Source: Escherichia coli (GTDB lineage: Bacteria > Pseudomonadota > Gammaproteobacteria > Enterobacterales > Enterobacteriaceae). Taken from it: a DNA stretch of 64,000 nt. The stretch's first letter is position 1, and each line of letters begins with the position of its first letter. A program made the position numbers and the translations under genes. The stretch lies in the NCBI RefSeq assembly GCF_048403405.1, contig NZ_CP183129.1; one strand, 5' to 3'. Below are positions 20,739 through 29,172 of this stretch, piece after piece. The notes beneath the pieces were generated by a model. It saw only the letters and a program-made list of their open reading frames with translations, was not told where the DNA came from and searched no databases.

Positions 20739-21893
20739 TTATGCCTGCCACGGATGAATGATTACGCCTTGCACCACGCGGTTAACGGTGCCGCTGGCTG
20801 ATGGGGTATCCGGCGTATTGCCCATGTGCAGCGATTGCATCAGTGCAAACGTCTGGGCGTACATCAGGAAGCAAAATGCCTGCTCAACGTCGATAAAGTG
20901 ACGGGACGGCGGCAGGATGATATGTGGACCGGCGGTAATAACGTCGTTGCTTTCCGCGGCGATGGCGATTACGCGCATTGCCTGGTTATCGCGGCGGAGT
21001 TCTGCCAGCAGATCAAGATCATACTGACGGGTGTAAGGGTGGCTGGAGACAAAAAACACCACCAGCGTTTCGTCATCGACCAGCGATTTTGGTCCATGAC
21101 GGAATCCGGTCGGGGAATCATAAAAGGCCGCCAGTTTACCCGCCGTCAGTTCCAGCACTTTCAGCGCCGACTCGCGTGCTGCGCCCTGTAAGCCACCGCT
21201 GCCGAGATAAACGATCCGTTTCCACGGTGCGTAACCAAACACACCCTCGCTGAAATCGCCCAGTGAGGTCAGGATCGCCTGGCAACGATCCGCCACGTCG
21301 CGGAAGCTCTGGCTATTGATCGTCTCAGGTGCGAAAACCGCGAGGCAGCTGGCCATCATGGTGGTAATGCTGCTGGTCATCGCAAAGCCGCGATCGTGCG
21401 TTTCTGCGGGCATCAGCAGGGCAAACGCGTTGTCGCTGTTGATCGCGTTTTGGTAAAGAGCGCCCGCTTCGTTGCAGGTGATCGGCAGGTGATAGCATTC
21501 TGGTACAAATTGATTTGCCAGTTCCACGGCGGCGACGCTTTCCGGGCTGTTGCCGGATCGACCGAAGGAGATCAACAGTAGCGGATGAGCTGGATTCAGG
21601 TAGTCCATCGGATTAGTGACCAGATCGGTGGTCGGTACGGCGCTGAAGTTTTTACCGGTATGGCTGGCGAGCCACGGCGCGATGATGTCACCGATAAATG
21701 CCGAGGTTCCGGCTCCGGTCAGGATTACCCGCAGATTCTCTTTGAGCAGTAACGGTTCAAGGAAGTTATTGAGCGCGGAACGTAGCGCGTCGATGTTGGT
21801 GAGTGAACGGATCCATGCGCGAGGCTGATGGCGGATCTCTTCTTCAGTCCATGTACCGGTTGCGGCAGCAGCAGGGGTGTAATTTTCTGGCAT
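20739..21893 (-). CDS. agaS: SIS-domain galactosamine-6-phosphate deaminase AgaS
   Basis: ORF track 384 aa; recognised as AgaS. Confidence 0.92.
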   Translation of the reverse strand: MPENYTPAAAATGTWTEEEIRHQPRAWIRSLTNIDALRSALNNFLEPLLLKENLRVILTGAGTSAFIGDIIAPWLASHTGKNFSAVPTTDLVTNPMDYLNPAHPLLLISFGRSGNSPESVAAVELANQFVPECYHLPITCNEAGALYQNAINSDNAFALLMPAETHDRGFAMTSSITTMMASCLAVFAPETINSQSFRDVADRCQAILTSLGDFSEGVFGYAPWKRIVYLGSGGLQGAARESALKVLELTAGKLAAFYDSPTGFRHGPKSLVDDETLVVFFVSSHPYTRQYDLDLLAELRRDNQAMRVIAIAAESNDVITAGPHIILPPSRHFIDVEQAFCFLMYAQTFALMQSLHMGNTPDTPSASGTVNRVVQGVIIHPWQA

Positions 21894-21899
21894 AACTCA

Positions 21900-22240
21900 A
21901 TCCTTAGTCTGATGAACTTGACGTCGGGCGTTGTCGCTTTCGCTTACCTTTCGTTTCATTTCACTTGGTGATGTCTTTCGTTGATTAAAATCTATAGAAA
22001 AGAAACTGAAAGTTCAATGGAGAAAAAAGAAATAAAACGAAATTTGTGATCATTGAAAGAAAAGACAAGGGAAGATTAAAGGATTGCGTAATGACGTCGC
22101 TATGTTCACCGATTGCCGGATGCGGCGTACCGTAGGTCGGATCAGACGCGTTAGCGTCGCATCCGACACCGCTGCACAGATCAAAAAGAAAGAAAAAGAA
22201 AGGCCTTACGGGGGAAGTGAAGGCCCAATAATGGAGCAAA
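21900..22240. promoter_or_regulatory. agaS promoter region with repeated CTTTCGTTT-type AgaR boxes, plus a REP-like element (about 22110-22172) distal to agaA
   Basis: Multiple copies of CTTTCG/CGAAAG half-sites read directly; assignment to AgaR is from the known operator consensus. Confidence 0.45.
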
Positions 22241-23825: not shown

Positions 23826-24710
23826 TTAAAGGAAATGACAGAATTTACCGACGATACCGAGAACCACGGTAACTGCAATCAGGCGCAGCGGACTCCAGCC
23901 GCGGCGTACCAGCCAGAACATGGTCAGGGTGTAGACCAGCGGTAAGAAGGCAGGCATCAGTTTGTCGATAACATCAGCCTGTAACTTAACCACTGCATCG
24001 CCAGCGGTGATTTCCAGCGTGGTGCTTAAACGAACATAGGTTGCTACCAGCGCGCCGATTACCGTCATCCCAACGATTGACGCAGCATGGCCGACTTTTT
24101 TGGTATTCGCTTTAATGAGTGGAATCGCCGCCACGCCCATGCGGTAAGCATAATGCGCCAGACCAAAACGCAGCCCCAGGTGTACCACGTTAAACAGCAC
24201 AATAAAGACGACTGCGCCAAGAATGGAGCCTTGCAATGCCAGACTGGCTCCAATCCCGCCACAAATCGGCAGTAGCGTTAGCCAGAACATTGCATCGCCA
24301 ATCCCGCCAAGCGGCGCACCGACGGCAATTTTGGTGCTCTGAATACTGTTAACGTCCTGCTTAGAACGCTCCATCGCAAGGATAATGCCGATAACAAACG
24401 TCACCAGAAACGGATGGGTATTGAAGAAACCCATATGCCCTTTCATGGCGCGCGCCAGGTCGCGTTTATTAGTGTGGATCTTTTTCAGAGCAGGCAGCAG
24501 ACCGTACAACCAGCCAGAAGCCTGCATACGTTCGTAGTTAAAAGACGCTTGTAACAGCATGGAACGCCAGGCGACGCGGTTGATATCTTTTTTTGTCAGC
24601 TCCGCGCCAATACTCTGATCTTCATACACGTTTTCATTGACGCCTGTCAGCAGTGTTTCTTCGTTTTCACTGACGTTCGGCAGGGTGGTTTGATTAGATG
24701 CCATCTTCAA
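23826..24710 (-). CDS. agaE: PTS N-acetylgalactosamine-specific IID component AgaE
   Basis: ORF track 294 aa; paralogue of AgaD; absent from K-12. Confidence 0.88.
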   Translation of the reverse strand: MKMASNQTTLPNVSENEETLLTGVNENVYEDQSIGAELTKKDINRVAWRSMLLQASFNYERMQASGWLYGLLPALKKIHTNKRDLARAMKGHMGFFNTHPFLVTFVIGIILAMERSKQDVNSIQSTKIAVGAPLGGIGDAMFWLTLLPICGGIGASLALQGSILGAVVFIVLFNVVHLGLRFGLAHYAYRMGVAAIPLIKANTKKVGHAASIVGMTVIGALVATYVRLSTTLEITAGDAVVKLQADVIDKLMPAFLPLVYTLTMFWLVRRGWSPLRLIAVTVVLGIVGKFCHFL

Positions 24711-25473
24711 ATTCCTCTTTCTGTGCCGCAGGTTGAGTCGGTTCAGGAGATTTACGCAGCAGGTCGATCAGCGCCATCGCCAGCGCGGCGGCAGCAATAG
24801 CCAGCACCGGTAACTTGAGCCAGGCTGCGGCAACAAAGCCCAGGATGAAGTAGGGGATGTAGACGTTTTTCATCATGATTTTCAGCAGCACGGCAAAACC
24901 GATTGCTGGCATGATGCCGCCCGCGACGCCGAGGCCGTCGATTAATCGTTGCGGCAGGACATCAATGATGGTTTTGGCATGTTCTGCGCCGAAGTAGATA
25001 GGCAGGAAAGCGCAGAGAAAATAGAAAGTGCCGAGTGCCAGCAGTGCCAGATAGTTCACGCGTTCAATGCCGCGAGTATCGGCGTTCTCTGCCATCCGGT
25101 CACAGCGGGACATTACGCCAGACATCACCGAGAACAGGAAGGTAATCCCCATCTGTACTGCGACAGCGAAAGGTACGGCGACACCGACCGCGACATCGGG
25201 TTTCACGCCGGTAGTAATGGCAAACGCCGTGCCGACGATAGTACCGATAATCACGTTAGGCGGCTGTGCACCCGCCAGCGGGGCCAGCCCCATCCACACC
25301 AGTTCCAGCGTACCGCCGGTTAAAATACCGGTATGCAGATCGCCAAGTACCAGCCCGACCAACGGGCCGAGGACCACCGGGCGGTGCATATGGGTTAGGC
25401 CGTTAAACATATCCAGGCCAGCGATAAAGGCGATAATGCCCAACGCGAATGCCTGCAACAGACTGATTTCCAT
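24694..25473 (-). CDS. agaW: PTS N-acetylgalactosamine-specific IIC component AgaW, full length
   Basis: ORF track 259 aa; paralogue of AgaC; truncated in K-12. Confidence 0.88.
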   Translation of the reverse strand: MEISLLQAFALGIIAFIAGLDMFNGLTHMHRPVVLGPLVGLVLGDLHTGILTGGTLELVWMGLAPLAGAQPPNVIIGTIVGTAFAITTGVKPDVAVGVAVPFAVAVQMGITFLFSVMSGVMSRCDRMAENADTRGIERVNYLALLALGTFYFLCAFLPIYFGAEHAKTIIDVLPQRLIDGLGVAGGIMPAIGFAVLLKIMMKNVYIPYFILGFVAAAWLKLPVLAIAAAALAMALIDLLRKSPEPTQPAAQKEEFEDGI

Positions 25474-25979: not shown

Positions 25980-27260
25980 TTATTGGCCTTCACAGGCTGT
26001 GTGGTACTGCGCCAGGATGTCCTGAATATGGTTGATAATGAGTTCCCGTGGCGTTGGCTGCAGCTCGCCGGAGCGAACTTTCACGTATTGCAGCGGCAAA
26101 TACTGGCTGATGAGCGGTAGCGGAATTGGTGAATCCGCCAGATTACGAACCAGATGAGCGAAAGCGTCATCAATCTGGCTGTCCGGCCAGTAATAGCGCA
26201 CGCGATCCGAGTAGCTATAACCACGTGCCAGACGACGCGCGTTGCCGTCACCGTGGTAGTGGCTTTGCCAGTATTCCGGGCGGTCGAGCATCACGTTTTC
26301 CAGTACCTGACGCAGACCGGAACAGGCTTTCGCTGGCACCAGTTCTTCTTCAATCGCCGCCAGAGAGAACAGAGCTTCACGCAGGGCGAAGGTCAGCGCC
26401 GGGCCAACTTTCAGAATGGCAAAGTGGTCAATCACCAGCTGGCGCAGCGATTGCGGCGTTTGATAATCGGTAGAGTGCGCTTCGAAAATCAGCGTTTCGT
26501 AGTTTTCGACCATCTGGCTTAAGGCGGTCGCTTTAGCTGGCTGATAATCAATAACGTTGGTGTGATCGAATTCGACGCCGGGTTGTACCACCAGAGCAAT
26601 GATGCGTGGCCAGATGGCACTCAGACCTTGCTTTTCAAAGGCGTGACGATGGGCTTCCAGCGTGGCGCGGGCGGCATCTGGCGTGGTGACCGCCAGCTCG
26701 CTTAAGGTTTCATGCGCGCCGCCAGGTACCGGCACTTCGGTACCAATGACATACTCCAAATCGGCTTCGCCAAAGTGTTCACGACAGGTTTCTTCCGCCA
26801 CTTTCGCCAGACGTGCGGCGCGTTCAGCCACGATGTCATCAGTTAAGGGAATTGGATCGTCCTGACAGGACATGCTGCAATCAAGGTGAATTTTTTTGAA
26901 TCCTGCCGCCACGTAGCTTTTAATCAAATCATCGGCATTGGCCATTGCCTGAGCGGCTGGCAGGTTTTGCCAGCGGTTTGGCCCCAGATGGTCGCCTCCC
27001 AAAATCAACGCATCCTGTGGGAAATTCAACGAGTCGGCGAGCTGACAAACAAAGCCGCGAAAATCGGCGGGCGTCATTCCGGTATAACCGCCGAACTGGT
27101 CCACCTGATTGGAGGTTGCTTCAATCAGTAACGGCGTTTGGTTTGCACTGGCGTAGCGGATTGCAGCTTCCAGCACCAGCGGATGTGCGGAACAAACGGC
27201 ATAAATCCCATTTGTTTTACCCTCTTTGTGCTGTCTCACCATTTCTGTCAGATGTTTCAC
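25980..27260 (-). CDS. kbaZ: tagatose-bisphosphate aldolase non-catalytic subunit KbaZ
   Basis: ORF track 426 aa; recognised as KbaZ (AgaZ). Confidence 0.92.
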
Positions 27261-27508
27261 TTTCCTCTCCAGTTCAGATTACTGCGATATTAATCTTTCG
27301 TTTTGTTTCAGTTGATACTGCGCCATGGTGAGATAAAAATAAAACGAAAGATAATGGTTTTCTGATCTGATTCACAAAAGAAACATAATGAAAGCCACTG
27401 AAACGAGAGTAGCTTGCGCCAATGGGTAAGGTGGGCTTGCATTTGCTTAATAGAAAGGCGTTAATAGGCAAAACGAAATGAAACGAAAGTTTTACGAAAG
27501 GACTTACT
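27261..27508. promoter_or_regulatory. divergent kbaZ/agaR promoter region with several CTTTCGTTT-type AgaR boxes
   Basis: Motifs ctttcgttttgtttc, aaacgaaagataa, aaacgaaatgaaacgaaagttttacgaaagg read directly from the sequence. Confidence 0.5.
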
Positions 27509-28318
27509 ATGAGTAATACCGACGCTTCAGGTGAGAAGCGAATGACAGGCACCAGCGAGCGACGAGAACAGATCATTCAGCGTCTGCGACAGCAAGGGAG
27601 TGTGCAGGTTAACGATCTGTCGGCATTGTATGGCGTATCTACTGTGACGATCCGCAACGATCTGGCGTTTCTGGAAAAGCAGGGGATCGCTGTGCGTGCC
27701 TATGGCGGCGCGTTGATCTGCGATAGCACGACGCCGTCAGTCGAGCCATCAGTGGAAGATAAAAGCGCGCTGAACACCGCAATGAAACGCAGCGTTGCGA
27801 AAGCTGCCGTTGAGTTGATTCAGCCAGGTCATCGGGTAATCCTCGATTCCGGGACCACCACTTTTGAGATTGCTCGTCTGATGCGCAAGCACACTGACGT
27901 AATTGCGATGACCAACGGTATGAACGTGGCTAATGCGTTGCTGGAAGCGGAAGGCGTTGAGCTGCTGATGACCGGCGGGCATTTGCGCCGTCAGTCGCAA
28001 TCTTTTTACGGCGATCAGGCTGAGCAATCGCTGCAAAATTACCACTTCGATATGCTGTTTCTTGGTGTAGATGCGATCGATCTGGAGCGCGGCGTCAGCA
28101 CACATAATGAAGATGAAGCTCGTTTAAACCGCCGGATGTGCGAAGTTGCGGAACGGATCATCGTGGTCACCGATTCCAGTAAGTTCAATCGTTCCAGTTT
28201 ACATAAGATCATTGATACTCAACGTATCGACATGATCATTGTTGATGAAGGCATTCCTGCGGATAGTCTGGAAGGGCTGCGAAAGGCTGGGGTTGAAGTG
28301 ATTCTGGTCGGGGAGTGA
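27509..28318 (+). CDS. agaR: DeoR-family repressor of the aga operons AgaR
   Basis: ORF track 269 aa; N-terminal HTH and DeoR C-terminal domain; recognised as AgaR. Confidence 0.93.
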
Positions 28319-28372: not shown

Positions 28373-28837
28373 TCAATGGGTTTCTTCTGTCTCTCGGGTG
28401 AGGGTTTCCCAGTCGGCAGGAGGATGTCCTCTTTTTAACATTTTGCTGAATACGGTATAGGCATCTGTTTTTTTACCGTAGGTGCGCAGAGTGTTTTCAT
28501 CGTTCATCCATCCCAGAATGATGACTTTCTCTTTTTCACTATAACGAAAGAAGAGACGATAACGACCAGCACCAAATTTTACCCGTGACCAGTCTTTATT
28601 TTTCCCAGAGCCTAACGACTTGCCATGACGGAATGCCGGTGATGATGGATTGACCGTGATATGCTCCTCAATCACTTTATGGACTACCGCCAATAACTTT
28701 GTGGCGGCTTTTCTCTGATAATTTTCAGGATCTTTTCCCTTTAATGTCTCGACTTCGGCAACTAAAGCGTCGTAGGTTTCCTGAAAACAGGGATGAGCAT
28801 ATAGCGCCCAACCATTAACCCTTTGTGGAAAATCCAT
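28373..28837 (-). CDS. yhaV: type II toxin YhaV (ribosome-dependent mRNA endoribonuclease)
   Basis: ORF track 154 aa; recognised as YhaV; its start overlaps the prlF stop. Confidence 0.92.
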   Translation of the reverse strand: MDFPQRVNGWALYAHPCFQETYDALVAEVETLKGKDPENYQRKAATKLLAVVHKVIEEHITVNPSSPAFRHGKSLGSGKNKDWSRVKFGAGRYRLFFRYSEKEKVIILGWMNDENTLRTYGKKTDAYTVFSKMLKRGHPPADWETLTRETEETH

Positions 28838-29172
28838 TATTCGTCGTCGCCAATCTCATCATCAATGTTGACGTCCATGCCAGCGACAAGTTTCTTTCCT
28901 TGTTGAATGTTGAATGGACGAGTTTTTTGCGGGGTGTTCTGGATATCTGCATCCAGAAAACGCAAAAATGCATTCATAGTATGATCCTCCTGTTCATCTC
29001 CCAGTCGGCACATAAATACTTGCCCACCAGGCAGAATTTCGTAATGAATGCTGTCCTGGCCTGGCTTCAGTTTTAAGGCCTCACGCACTGGCGCGGGGAT
29101 AGTTGTTTGTCCGCGTATCGTGACCTTTGATTCAGTGGTCAGTACAGCGTGAGAGCGAGCATTAGCGGGCAT
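28837..29172 (-). CDS. prlF: antitoxin PrlF (SohA), AbrB/SpoVT-type
   Basis: ORF track 111 aa; acidic C-terminus; recognised as PrlF; paired with yhaV. Confidence 0.92.
   Translation of the reverse strand: MPANARSHAVLTTESKVTIRGQTTIPAPVREALKLKPGQDSIHYEILPGGQVFMCRLGDEQEDHTMNAFLRFLDADIQNTPQKTRPFNIQQGKKLVAGMDVNIDDEIGDDE

What the first reader, a model, noticed from the sequence alone, without database searches (positions are those of the whole stretch)
27261..27508. Dense array of AgaR-type boxes in the divergent kbaZ/agaR promoter region
At least four CTTTCGTTT / AAACGAAAG-type repeats in both orientations occur within 250 bp, matching the known AgaR operator pattern and implying co-operative repression of both divergent promoters.
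Basis: partly seen in the sequence, partly recalled or inferred. Interest (0 to 1): 0.3.

Follow-up and report, generated by a model that had tools for sequence, protein, structure and literature searches.

The report
Known AgaR operator array, kbaZ–agaR
The repeated CTTTCGTTT-type boxes are real and are the already-described binding sites of the AgaR repressor between the divergent kbaZ and agaR genes of E. coli, so the finding is correct but ordinary.

Summary
The 248-bp kbaZ/agaR intergenic region (27261-27508) of this E. coli window holds three exact CTTTCGTTT 9-mers, against 0.013 expected from shuffles of the region itself, plus degenerate copies.

The working units are about 24 bp long. 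Four of them match the AgaR consensus as I recall it from Ray & Larson 2004:
- A: 27292-27315 (+)
- B: 27330-27353 (-)
- C: 27374-27397 (-)
- E: 27469-27492 (-)

All four are conserved in sequence and spacing in 77 orthologous regions from about 25 enterobacterial genera. A weight matrix trained only on non-Escherichia orthologues ranks these four sites and three sites in the agaA-agaS intergenic region, upstream of agaS, as the top seven of 64 kb. The next unrelated hit scores 4.7 bits.

A conserved CRP-like site (27361-27376) lies between B and C.

The boxes are identical to K-12, where AgaR binding to the agaR, kbaZ and agaS promoters is published. Site E has been used as an AgaR operator in a synthetic promoter.

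Repression of both promoters is established. Co-operativity is plausible but untested. Verdict: already known, low interest.

The parts
27292..27315 (+). AgaR operator A (AATCTTTCGTTTTGTTTCAGTTGA; core CTTTCGTTTTGTTTC at 27295-27309). It is the only box on the + strand, it converges on box B, and it lies downstream of the inferred kbaZ promoter.
   Evidence: 3 mismatches to the consensus. PWM score 30.2 bits. Mean identity 0.95 in 77 orthologues, and the A->B distance is 41 bp in 68/77.
27330..27353 (-). AgaR operator B (TATCTTTCGTTTTATTTTTATCTC; core 27336-27350). It overlaps the inferred kbaZ -10 hexamer (TATTTT, 27341->27336).
   Evidence: Exact 9-mer. PWM score 29.8 bits. By my own manual comparison it has 4 mismatches to the 24-mer consensus, so it is absent. 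Identity 0.97, and the B->C distance is 44 bp in 72/77.
27361..27376 (.). CRP-like site TCTGATCTGATTCACA, centred at 27368.5. That is about 40 bp upstream of the inferred kbaZ start, a class II-like position.
   Evidence: One mismatch to TGTGA-N6-TCACA. The block is conserved, 22 bp from B and 22 bp from C in 74/77 orthologues. The activator role is inferred, and its cAMP-CRP dependence is recalled from the literature, not read here.
27374..27397 (-). AgaR operator C (TGGCTTTCATTATGTTTCTTTTGT; core 27380-27394). It abuts and overlaps the distal edge of the CRP-like site.
   Evidence: 2 mismatches to the consensus. PWM score 27.8 bits. Identity 0.96.
27398..27431 (.). Spacer that is not conserved in sequence but is nearly constant in length. 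It contains the one-mismatch box CTCTCGTTT (27401-27409, -), which is probably a chance match, and a weak hairpin.
   Evidence: The poorly conserved run starts at 27395, inside the last three positions of site C. Column identity across 27395-27431 is 0.1-0.4. The C->E distance is 90-93 bp in 70/77. The hairpin was listed.
27437..27465 (+). Inferred agaR promoter: -35 TTGCAT (27437-27442), a 17-bp spacer, and -10 GTTAAT (27460-27465). The predicted start is near 27472.
   Evidence: The blocks CTTGCATTT and GTTAATAGG are conserved. The hexamers are weak and were not picked up by the consensus scan. Their assignment is inference.
27453..27457 (-). Box D: a conserved single CTTTC pentamer inside the agaR promoter spacer. 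It is not a full 24-bp site.
   Evidence: AAGAAAGG or TAGAAAGG occurs in 59/77 orthologues, and the D->E distance is 19 bp in 59/77. No PWM hit is in register with it.
27469..27492 (-). AgaR operator E (AAACTTTCGTTTCATTTCGTTTTG), made of four TTTCR/TTTYR pentamers in tandem. It covers the inferred agaR transcription start.
   Evidence: 0 mismatches to the consensus. Best PWM score, 31.0 bits. It is the 'PkbaZ' AgaR binding sequence of PMC8667592 Table S3, apart from one displaced T. CTTTCGTTTC is nearly invariant.
27494..27500 (-). Box F: CTTTCGT, 11 bp from the CTTTC of site E. It overlaps the agaR Shine-Dalgarno sequence (AAGGA, 27498-27502). It is Escherichia-specific and doubtful as an operator.
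   Evidence: CGAAAG is present at this position in only 3/77 orthologues, whereas an SD-like AAGG/AGGA/GGAG is present in 76/77.
27509..28318 (+). agaR, the DeoR-family repressor that reads the boxes.
   Evidence: HTH_DeoR E = 1.9e-21 and DeoRC E = 3.3e-55. Annotated as AgaR in identical genomes.
25980..27260 (-). kbaZ, the first gene of the kbaZ-agaVWEFA operon controlled from this region.
   Evidence: ORF, annotation.
21945..21968 (+). AgaR operator upstream of agaS (TACCTTTCGTTTCATTTCACTTGG), 52-75 bp before the agaS ATG at 21893. It belongs to the same regulon.
   Evidence: 0 mismatches to the consensus. PWM score 29.7 bits from a matrix that never saw this region.
22023..22046 (-). Second AgaR operator upstream of agaS (CAAATTTCGTTTTATTTCTTTTTT), convergent with the first.
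   Evidence: 1 mismatch. PWM score 23.1 bits.

Best explanation
The region is the shared control region of the divergent kbaZ-agaVWEFA operon and the agaR gene of E. coli. It carries four conserved ~24-bp operators for the DeoR-family repressor AgaR. Each operator is a run of TTTCR/TTTYR pentamers.

Without inducer, AgaR occupies the operators as follows:
- B lies over the kbaZ -10 region.
- A lies just downstream of the kbaZ start.
- C lies against the CRP site that this promoter probably needs.
- E lies over the agaR start.

The operon is therefore off and agaR is autoregulated. Growth on N-acetylgalactosamine or galactosamine relieves repression. The agaS promoter, 5.5 kb away in the window, carries the same kind of sites.

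Shown here: the sites exist, exceed chance, match the consensus, and are conserved in sequence and spacing.

Taken from papers: AgaR binds these promoter regions and represses them.

Inferred: the exact promoter hexamers and start sites, the class II-like role of CRP, and any co-operative or looped complex.
For: Identity of the locus. AgaR is a DeoR-family protein.

Enrichment over chance.

Consensus scan: 6 hits, all in the two aga regulatory regions, against 0.21 expected.

Phylogenetic footprint: in 77 distinct orthologous regions, A, B, C and E are 94-97% conserved, while the 27395-27431 spacer and the kbaZ 5' leader are not.

Cross-validation: the PWM trained on non-Escherichia orthologues recovers the untrained agaS-promoter sites at 29.7, 23.1 and 18.0 bits. 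The best unrelated hit is 4.7 bits, and the 95th percentile of the null maxima is 16.4.

Transfer from K-12: the boxes are identical to K-12 MG1655. The four differences in the region all fall outside them.

Literature:
[quoted passage not shown] Pz and Ps are induced by N-acetylgalactosamine, and a delta-agaR strain is constitutive (PMC3668189).
- Site E alone confers AgaR-dependent repression in a synthetic promoter (PMC8667592).
- agaR loss-of-function derepresses the aga genes (PMC9628945; PMC10101011).
Against: Nothing contradicts the assignment. The limits are as follows.
- The primary footprinting paper (Ray & Larson 2004) and Leyn et al. 2012 are not held. The consensus is from my memory, and I could not compare site boundaries with the published footprints.
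- The promoter hexamers I propose are weak. The consensus scanner instead listed two other + strand candidates (27312-27340 and 27328-27355).
- Centre-to-centre distances (38, 44 and 95 bp) are not whole numbers of helical turns, so there is no simple phasing argument for a loop.
Confidence: 0.93

Rival explanations
1. The sites are AgaR operators, but they act independently. Each blocks its own promoter by simple steric occlusion (B and A for kbaZ, E for agaR), with no co-operative or looped complex joining the two promoters.
For: The centre-to-centre distances are not integral helical turns (38, 44 and 95 bp). Each promoter has a site over its core elements, which would be enough for occlusion (and the inferred hexamers). 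No paper I could read reports co-operativity.
Against: A single site at +1 repressed less than 10-fold, whereas the native regulon is induced 30- to 500-fold. The contexts differ, so this comparison is indirect. Spacing A->B, B->C and C->E is fixed to within 1-3 bp over about 25 genera, even across a spacer whose sequence is not conserved. DeoR-family repressors are typically oligomeric (general knowledge).
Confidence: 0.35
2. The boxes are chance products of an AT-rich, T-tract-rich promoter region and have no specific function.
For: The region has G+C of 0.37.
Against: No shuffle out of 2000 of the region itself reached the observed counts. The boxes are the best-conserved parts of the region in 77 orthologues. 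The same motif recurs only at the other aga promoter.
Confidence: 0.01
3. The boxes are read mainly by a different regulator, for example another DeoR-family paralogue such as GatR, rather than by AgaR.
For: None found here. DeoR-family paralogues exist in E. coli (general knowledge).
Against: The motif is confined to the two aga regulatory regions in 64 kb. It travels with agaR in all 80 loci. Deleting agaR alone makes the regulon constitutive. Titrating AgaR represses a promoter carrying site E.
Confidence: 0.02

Closest known systems
AgaR operators of the E. coli K-12 agaR-kbaZ(agaZ) and agaS promoters (Ray & Larson 2004, Mol Microbiol 51:813; regulon reconstruction by Leyn et al. 2012, J Biol Chem 287:28047)
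   Same: It is the same locus, and the sequence is identical in every box. The consensus is the same. The three promoters PR, PZ and PS are the same. Site E is the sequence used as the AgaR operator by Guharajan et al. 2021.
   Different: Nothing of substance differs. This strain has four substitutions outside the boxes and carries the full aga/gam cluster rather than the K-12 deletion. I could not check my site boundaries against the published footprints.
GlpR and DeoR operator arrays of E. coli (DeoR family; tandem or multiple operators at glp promoters, three looped operators at deo)
   Same: A DeoR-family repressor reads several sites spread over and around the promoters, and cAMP-CRP activates at the same promoter (general knowledge; the CRP-like site here is).
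   Different: The half-site sequence differs: here it is TTTCR pentamer runs. For AgaR, oligomeric state and looping are not shown in anything I could read.
NagC at the divergent nagE-nagBACD promoters (amino-sugar regulon with a CRP site between two operators and a DNA loop)
   Same: It is also a divergent amino-sugar control region, with a repressor site at each promoter and a CRP site in between (general knowledge).
   Different: NagC is a ROK-family protein with a palindromic operator. Its loop is demonstrated, whereas the loop here is only a possibility.

Membership tests
AgaR (DeoR-family) operator sites of the enterobacterial aga/gam regulon | Sequence matches the AgaR consensus WRMMTTTCRTTTYRTTTYNYTTKK | tested here: met
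   E has 0 mismatches, C has 2 and A has 3. B has 4 mismatches by my own manual comparison, with a perfect 14-nt core, and matches TTTCGTTTYATTTC with one mismatch. There were 6 hits against 0.21 expected. The consensus itself is recalled from memory, not read.
AgaR (DeoR-family) operator sites of the enterobacterial aga/gam regulon | Located in the promoter regions of agaR, kbaZ (agaZ) or agaS | tested here: met
   All strong hits fall in 27292-27492 (kbaZ/agaR) or 21945-22046 (upstream of agaS).
AgaR (DeoR-family) operator sites of the enterobacterial aga/gam regulon | The cognate DeoR-family AgaR gene is present at the locus | tested here: met
   HTH_DeoR + DeoRC. The protein is 98-100% identical to annotated AgaR.
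AgaR (DeoR-family) operator sites of the enterobacterial aga/gam regulon | Sites are conserved in orthologous regulatory regions of other genomes | tested here: met
   A, B, C and E are 94-97% identical in 77 distinct regions from about 25 genera, with fixed spacing. Boxes at 27401-27409 and 27494-27500 fail this test.
AgaR (DeoR-family) operator sites of the enterobacterial aga/gam regulon | Physical binding by purified AgaR (footprint or gel shift) | not testable with these tools
   Published for K-12 according to PMC3668189 and PMC5018945. The boxes here are identical to K-12. The primary paper is not held.
AgaR (DeoR-family) operator sites of the enterobacterial aga/gam regulon | AgaR-dependent repression in vivo, relieved by N-acetylgalactosamine or galactosamine | not testable with these tools
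   Published: a delta-agaR strain is constitutive, and Pz and Ps are induced by N-acetylgalactosamine. Site E represses a synthetic promoter when AgaR is titrated.
Co-operative or looped multi-operator repressor complex (as for DeoR, NagC, GalR) | Binding at one site depends on the others, or repression depends on helical phase | not tested
   There is only indirect support: conserved spacing across a non-conserved spacer, and weak repression from one site. The distances are not integral helical turns.
cAMP-CRP activator site | Match to TGTGA-N6-TCACA at an activating distance from the promoter | tested here: inconclusive
   There is one mismatch and the site is conserved. Such matches are not rare in the window (5 observed, 2.0 expected). 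The distance of about -40 depends on an inferred transcription start.

The most novel reading that the evidence does not exclude
The four operators, the CRP site and both promoters may form one fixed-geometry nucleoprotein complex. In this reading, oligomeric AgaR bridges the agaR-proximal site E (and pentamer D) to the kbaZ-proximal cluster A-B-C and excludes CRP. That would explain two observations: the ~37-bp spacer 27395-27431 keeps its length to within 1-3 bp across about 25 genera while its sequence is free to change, and one operator alone represses less than 10-fold.
Probability: 0.3. Interest if true: 0.3.

Novelty: already known. Interest (0 to 1): 0.1.

Why it matters
It matters little beyond annotation. 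The result confirms that this window carries the standard, intact AgaR control region of the N-acetylgalactosamine/galactosamine regulon. It also shows that the first-stage reader can recognise a real operator array from raw sequence.

There are two small additions. First, a cross-genus footprint shows which boxes are under selection (A, B, C, E and pentamer D) and which are not (27401-27409 and 27494-27500). Second, the architecture, including the length of a non-conserved spacer, is nearly fixed across Enterobacterales. That gives a cheap, testable handle on whether AgaR loops DNA.

Tried and rejected
Papers not available. Ray & Larson 2004 (PubMed id 14731281) and Leyn et al. 2012 (by DOI and as PMC3431674) are not held. 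A text search for the consensus string found only an unrelated paper. A search for AgaR + agaZ + promoter + CRP found nothing.

Promoter scan. The consensus scan listed two + strand candidates (TTGATA-17-AAAAAT at 27312-27340 and GTGAGA-16-GATAAT at 27328-27355) and none on the - strand. I did not adopt them as the agaR promoter, because the conserved TTGCAT-17-GTTAAT pair sits directly upstream of site E. I cannot exclude them.

RNA element. An Rfam scan at E <= 1 found nothing in the kbaZ/agaR region.

Helical phasing. The distances of 38, 44 and 95 bp do not fit whole turns, so I dropped phasing as an argument for looping.

Chance or low complexity. Rejected.

Individual boxes. Box F (27494-27500) as a conserved operator was rejected: it is the agaR ribosome-binding site in most genera. 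Box 27401-27409 was rejected as not conserved.

Full report
WHAT IS THERE

The window is E. coli chromosome. A 448-bp query around the finding is 100% identical to several complete genomes and matches 5,318 of 5,426 E. coli genomes. It lies between kbaZ and agaR. The annotated neighbourhood is the full aga/gam cluster (kbaZ-agaVWEF-agaA [annotated nagA]-agaS-kbaY-agaBCDI), with prlF-yhaV and garD on the other side of agaR. In window coordinates, kbaZ is 25980-27260 (-) and agaR is 27509-28318 (+). The finding's span, 27261-27508, is therefore exactly the 248-bp divergent intergenic region. AgaR has an HTH_DeoR domain (E = 1.9e-21) and a DeoRC domain (E = 3.3e-55).

CHECKING THE OBSERVATION

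- Exact CTTTCGTTT occurs at 27295 (+), 27342-27350 (-) and 27481-27489 (-). The only other copy in 64 kb is at 21948, upstream of agaS.
- One-mismatch copies are at 27401-27409 and 27471-27479. A CTTTCGT 7-mer is at 27500->27494.
- In 2000 dinucleotide-preserving shuffles of the 248 bp itself, the 9-mer count averaged 0.013 and never reached 3. The TTTCRT count averaged 0.74 against 7 observed.

WHAT THE UNITS ARE

The published AgaR consensus, as I recall it from Ray & Larson 2004, is WRMMTTTCRTTTYRTTTYNYTTKK. The paper is not held. At up to 3 mismatches the consensus gives six hits in the window against 0.21 expected, and all six are in aga regulatory DNA:
- 27292-27315 (+) (site A)
- 27374-27397 (-) (site C)
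- 27469-27492 (-) (site E), with 0 mismatches
- 21945-21968 (+), with 0 mismatches
- 22023-22046 (-)
- 22182-22205 (-)

A fourth site in the finding's region, B at 27330-27353 (-), has a perfect 14-nt core (TTTCGTTTTATTTT) but four mismatches in the flanks by my own count. It matches TTTCGTTTYATTTC with one mismatch. Each site is a run of TTTCR/TTTYR pentamers. Site E reads C-TTTCG-TTTCA-TTTCG-TTTTG, which is why a copy shifted by 5 bp also scores.

PHYLOGENETIC FOOTPRINT

One scan of the species-representative genomes with AgaR returned 80 loci from Escherichia, Klebsiella, Kluyvera, Raoultella, Citrobacter, Enterobacter, Salmonella (subspecies arizonae and diarizonae), Lelliottia, Kosakonia, Buttiauxella, Trabulsiella, Yokenella, Cedecea, Yersinia, Serratia, Ewingella, Mixta, Pantoea and others. 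All have kbaZ divergent from agaR. The intergenic length is 249-251 bp in 67 of 78. An alignment of the 77 distinct sequences shows the following.

Conserved blocks:
- the kbaZ ribosome-binding site (27261-27270)
- site A, continuing to 27321
- site B
- a CRP-like site, TCTGATCTGATTCACA (27361-27376; one mismatch to TGTGA-N6-TCACA)
- site C
- CTTGCATTT (27436-27444)
- AGAAAGG (pentamer D, 27453-27457)
- GTTAATAGG (27460-27468)
- site E

Not conserved:
- the kbaZ leader (27271-27293)
- 27322-27333
- the 37-bp stretch 27395-27431, which contains the one-mismatch box at 27401-27409

A right-anchored comparison shows that the box at 27494-27500 is Escherichia-specific. CGAAAG occurs there in 3 of 77 sequences. 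What is conserved at that position is the agaR Shine-Dalgarno sequence, found in 76 of 77.

Spacing is nearly fixed: A->B is 41 bp in 68/77, B->CRP is 22 bp in 74/77, CRP->C is 22 bp in 74/77, and C->E is 90-93 bp in 70/77.

CROSS-VALIDATED MOTIF SCAN

I trained a 24-column weight matrix on A, B, C and E from non-Escherichia orthologues only (284 sites; consensus AATCTTTCGTTTTATTTCTTTTGA) and scanned the whole window. The top seven scores were:
- E: 31.0 bits
- A: 30.2 bits
- B: 29.8 bits
- 21945-21968: 29.7 bits
- C: 27.8 bits
- 22023-22046: 23.1 bits
- 22182-22205: 18.0 bits

The best hit outside the aga regulatory DNA scored 4.7 bits. The maximum score in 100 simulated windows averaged 9.7, with a 95th percentile of 16.4. 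The three sites in the agaA-agaS intergenic region were never in the training set. The refutation condition, 'no better than background', is clearly not met.

LINK TO EXPERIMENT

The region differs from K-12 MG1655 at four positions (27323, 27395, 27419, 27427), none inside a box, so K-12 results transfer directly.
- Hu et al. [quoted passage not shown] - Afzal et al. [quoted passage not shown]
- Guharajan et al. 2021 (PMC8667592) cloned 'CTTTCGTTTCATTTTCGTTT', labelled PkbaZ, as the AgaR binding site. This is site E (27470-27489, - strand) with one T displaced. At +1 it gave AgaR-dependent repression that never exceeded about 10-fold. At -61 it showed a mixed 'stabilising but decelerating' effect.
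- Loss-of-function agaR mutations derepress the aga genes in two evolution studies.

HOW IT MOST LIKELY WORKS

Shown here or published: AgaR sites sit at both promoters, and AgaR represses both.

Inferred from conservation and hexamer matches:
- The agaR promoter is TTGCAT (27437-27442), 17 bp, GTTAAT (27460-27465), with a start near 27472. Site E then covers about -3 to +21, and pentamer D sits in the promoter spacer. This gives autoregulation by occlusion.
- The kbaZ promoter probably uses TATTTT (27341->27336) or TTTTAT (27338->27333) as its -10, inside site B, with a start near 27326-27331. The CRP-like site is then centred near -40 (class II-like), site A lies at about +12 to +35, and site C at about -47 to -70, touching CRP. 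AgaR could then block RNA polymerase (B), obstruct it downstream (A) and interfere with CRP (C).
- An alternative has CRP at -61.5 with CAGTAT (27320->27315) as the -10. I cannot exclude this. Under it, A and B still overlap core promoter elements.

The consensus scanner did not report my hexamers and listed two other + strand candidates, so these assignments need the published start sites.

IS IT CO-OPERATIVE?

In favour:
- There are several sites per promoter.
- The spacing is nearly invariant, including across a spacer whose sequence is free to change.
- One site represses less than 10-fold, against a 30- to 500-fold native range. This comparison is indirect.

Against, or neutral:
- Centre-to-centre distances of 38, 44 and 95 bp are not whole helical turns.
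- Length conservation is also seen in the other non-conserved segments (kbaZ ATG->A is 33-36 bp; E->agaR ATG is 39-41 bp). It may therefore reflect a generally low indel rate rather than a specific loop constraint.

OTHER CHECKS AND VERDICT

No Rfam family matches the region at E <= 1. Genomic SELEX lists weak RpoH- and RpoE-holoenzyme peaks in the agaR/kbaZ spacer (PMC5493296). I did not follow this up.

The feature is the already-described AgaR operator array. Novelty: already known. Interest: low.

Noticed in passing
window 21945-22046 (also 22182-22205): A second AgaR operator cluster lies upstream of agaS (ATG at 21893, - strand). It consists of a convergent pair at 21945-21968 (+) and 22023-22046 (-). 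A weaker T-rich hit at 22182-22205 (18.0 bits, just above the null 95th percentile of 16.4) lies 39 bp after the agaA stop codon and may be a chance match.
   Followed up: partly
window ~22070-22180: REP/BIME-like palindromic units (GCCGGATGCGGCGT... / ...GCGTCGCATCCGACACC) lie in the agaA-agaS intergenic region, between the agaS operators and the agaA stop. Rfam gives only sub-threshold naRNA4 (REP-derived) matches at 22135-22205 (24.8 bits against a gathering score of 59.5).
   Followed up: partly
window 23826-25473: The ORFs at the agaW position (259 aa) and the agaE position (294 aa from TTG; names by correspondence to the annotated genome) are full length. This strain therefore carries the complete aga/gam cluster rather than the 2.3-kb K-12 deletion, and is expected to be able to use N-acetylgalactosamine.
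   Followed up: partly
window 27395-27431 and loci L002-L081: The spacer between site C and the agaR promoter is not conserved in sequence, yet the C->E distance stays at 90-93 bp in 70 of 77 orthologues. The whole intergenic region is 249-251 bp in 67 of 78. This may be a length constraint or may just reflect a low indel rate. No neutral control region was available.
   Followed up: partly
window 27453-27457: A single CTTTC pentamer (AGAAAGG on the + strand) is conserved inside the inferred agaR promoter spacer, 19 bp from site E in 59/77 orthologues. It is not part of any full 24-bp site, and its role is unknown.
   Followed up: partly
window 27316-27321: TACTGC, immediately beyond the 24-bp site A, is as conserved as the site itself. 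It may extend the operator, or it may be part of an alternative kbaZ -10 (CAGTAT on the - strand).
   Followed up: no
window 27261-27508 (K-12 spacer near 3,276,944 in the paper's coordinates): Genomic SELEX (PMC5493296) lists weak RpoH and RpoE holoenzyme binding peaks in the agaR/kbaZ spacer (intensities 3.6 and 4.2).
   Followed up: no
loci L009, L034, L047, L049: In these genomes (a Citrobacter amalonaticus, Kluyvera genomosp. 3, Enterobacter mori and a Trabulsiella odontotermitis), the first tblastn segment of kbaZ stops after 19-107 residues. This suggests frameshifts, pseudogenes or assembly errors in kbaZ, while agaR and the operators remain.
   Followed up: no
window 28373-29172: The yhaV-prlF toxin-antitoxin pair lies directly downstream of agaR, convergent with it, as in annotated E. 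coli genomes.
   Followed up: no
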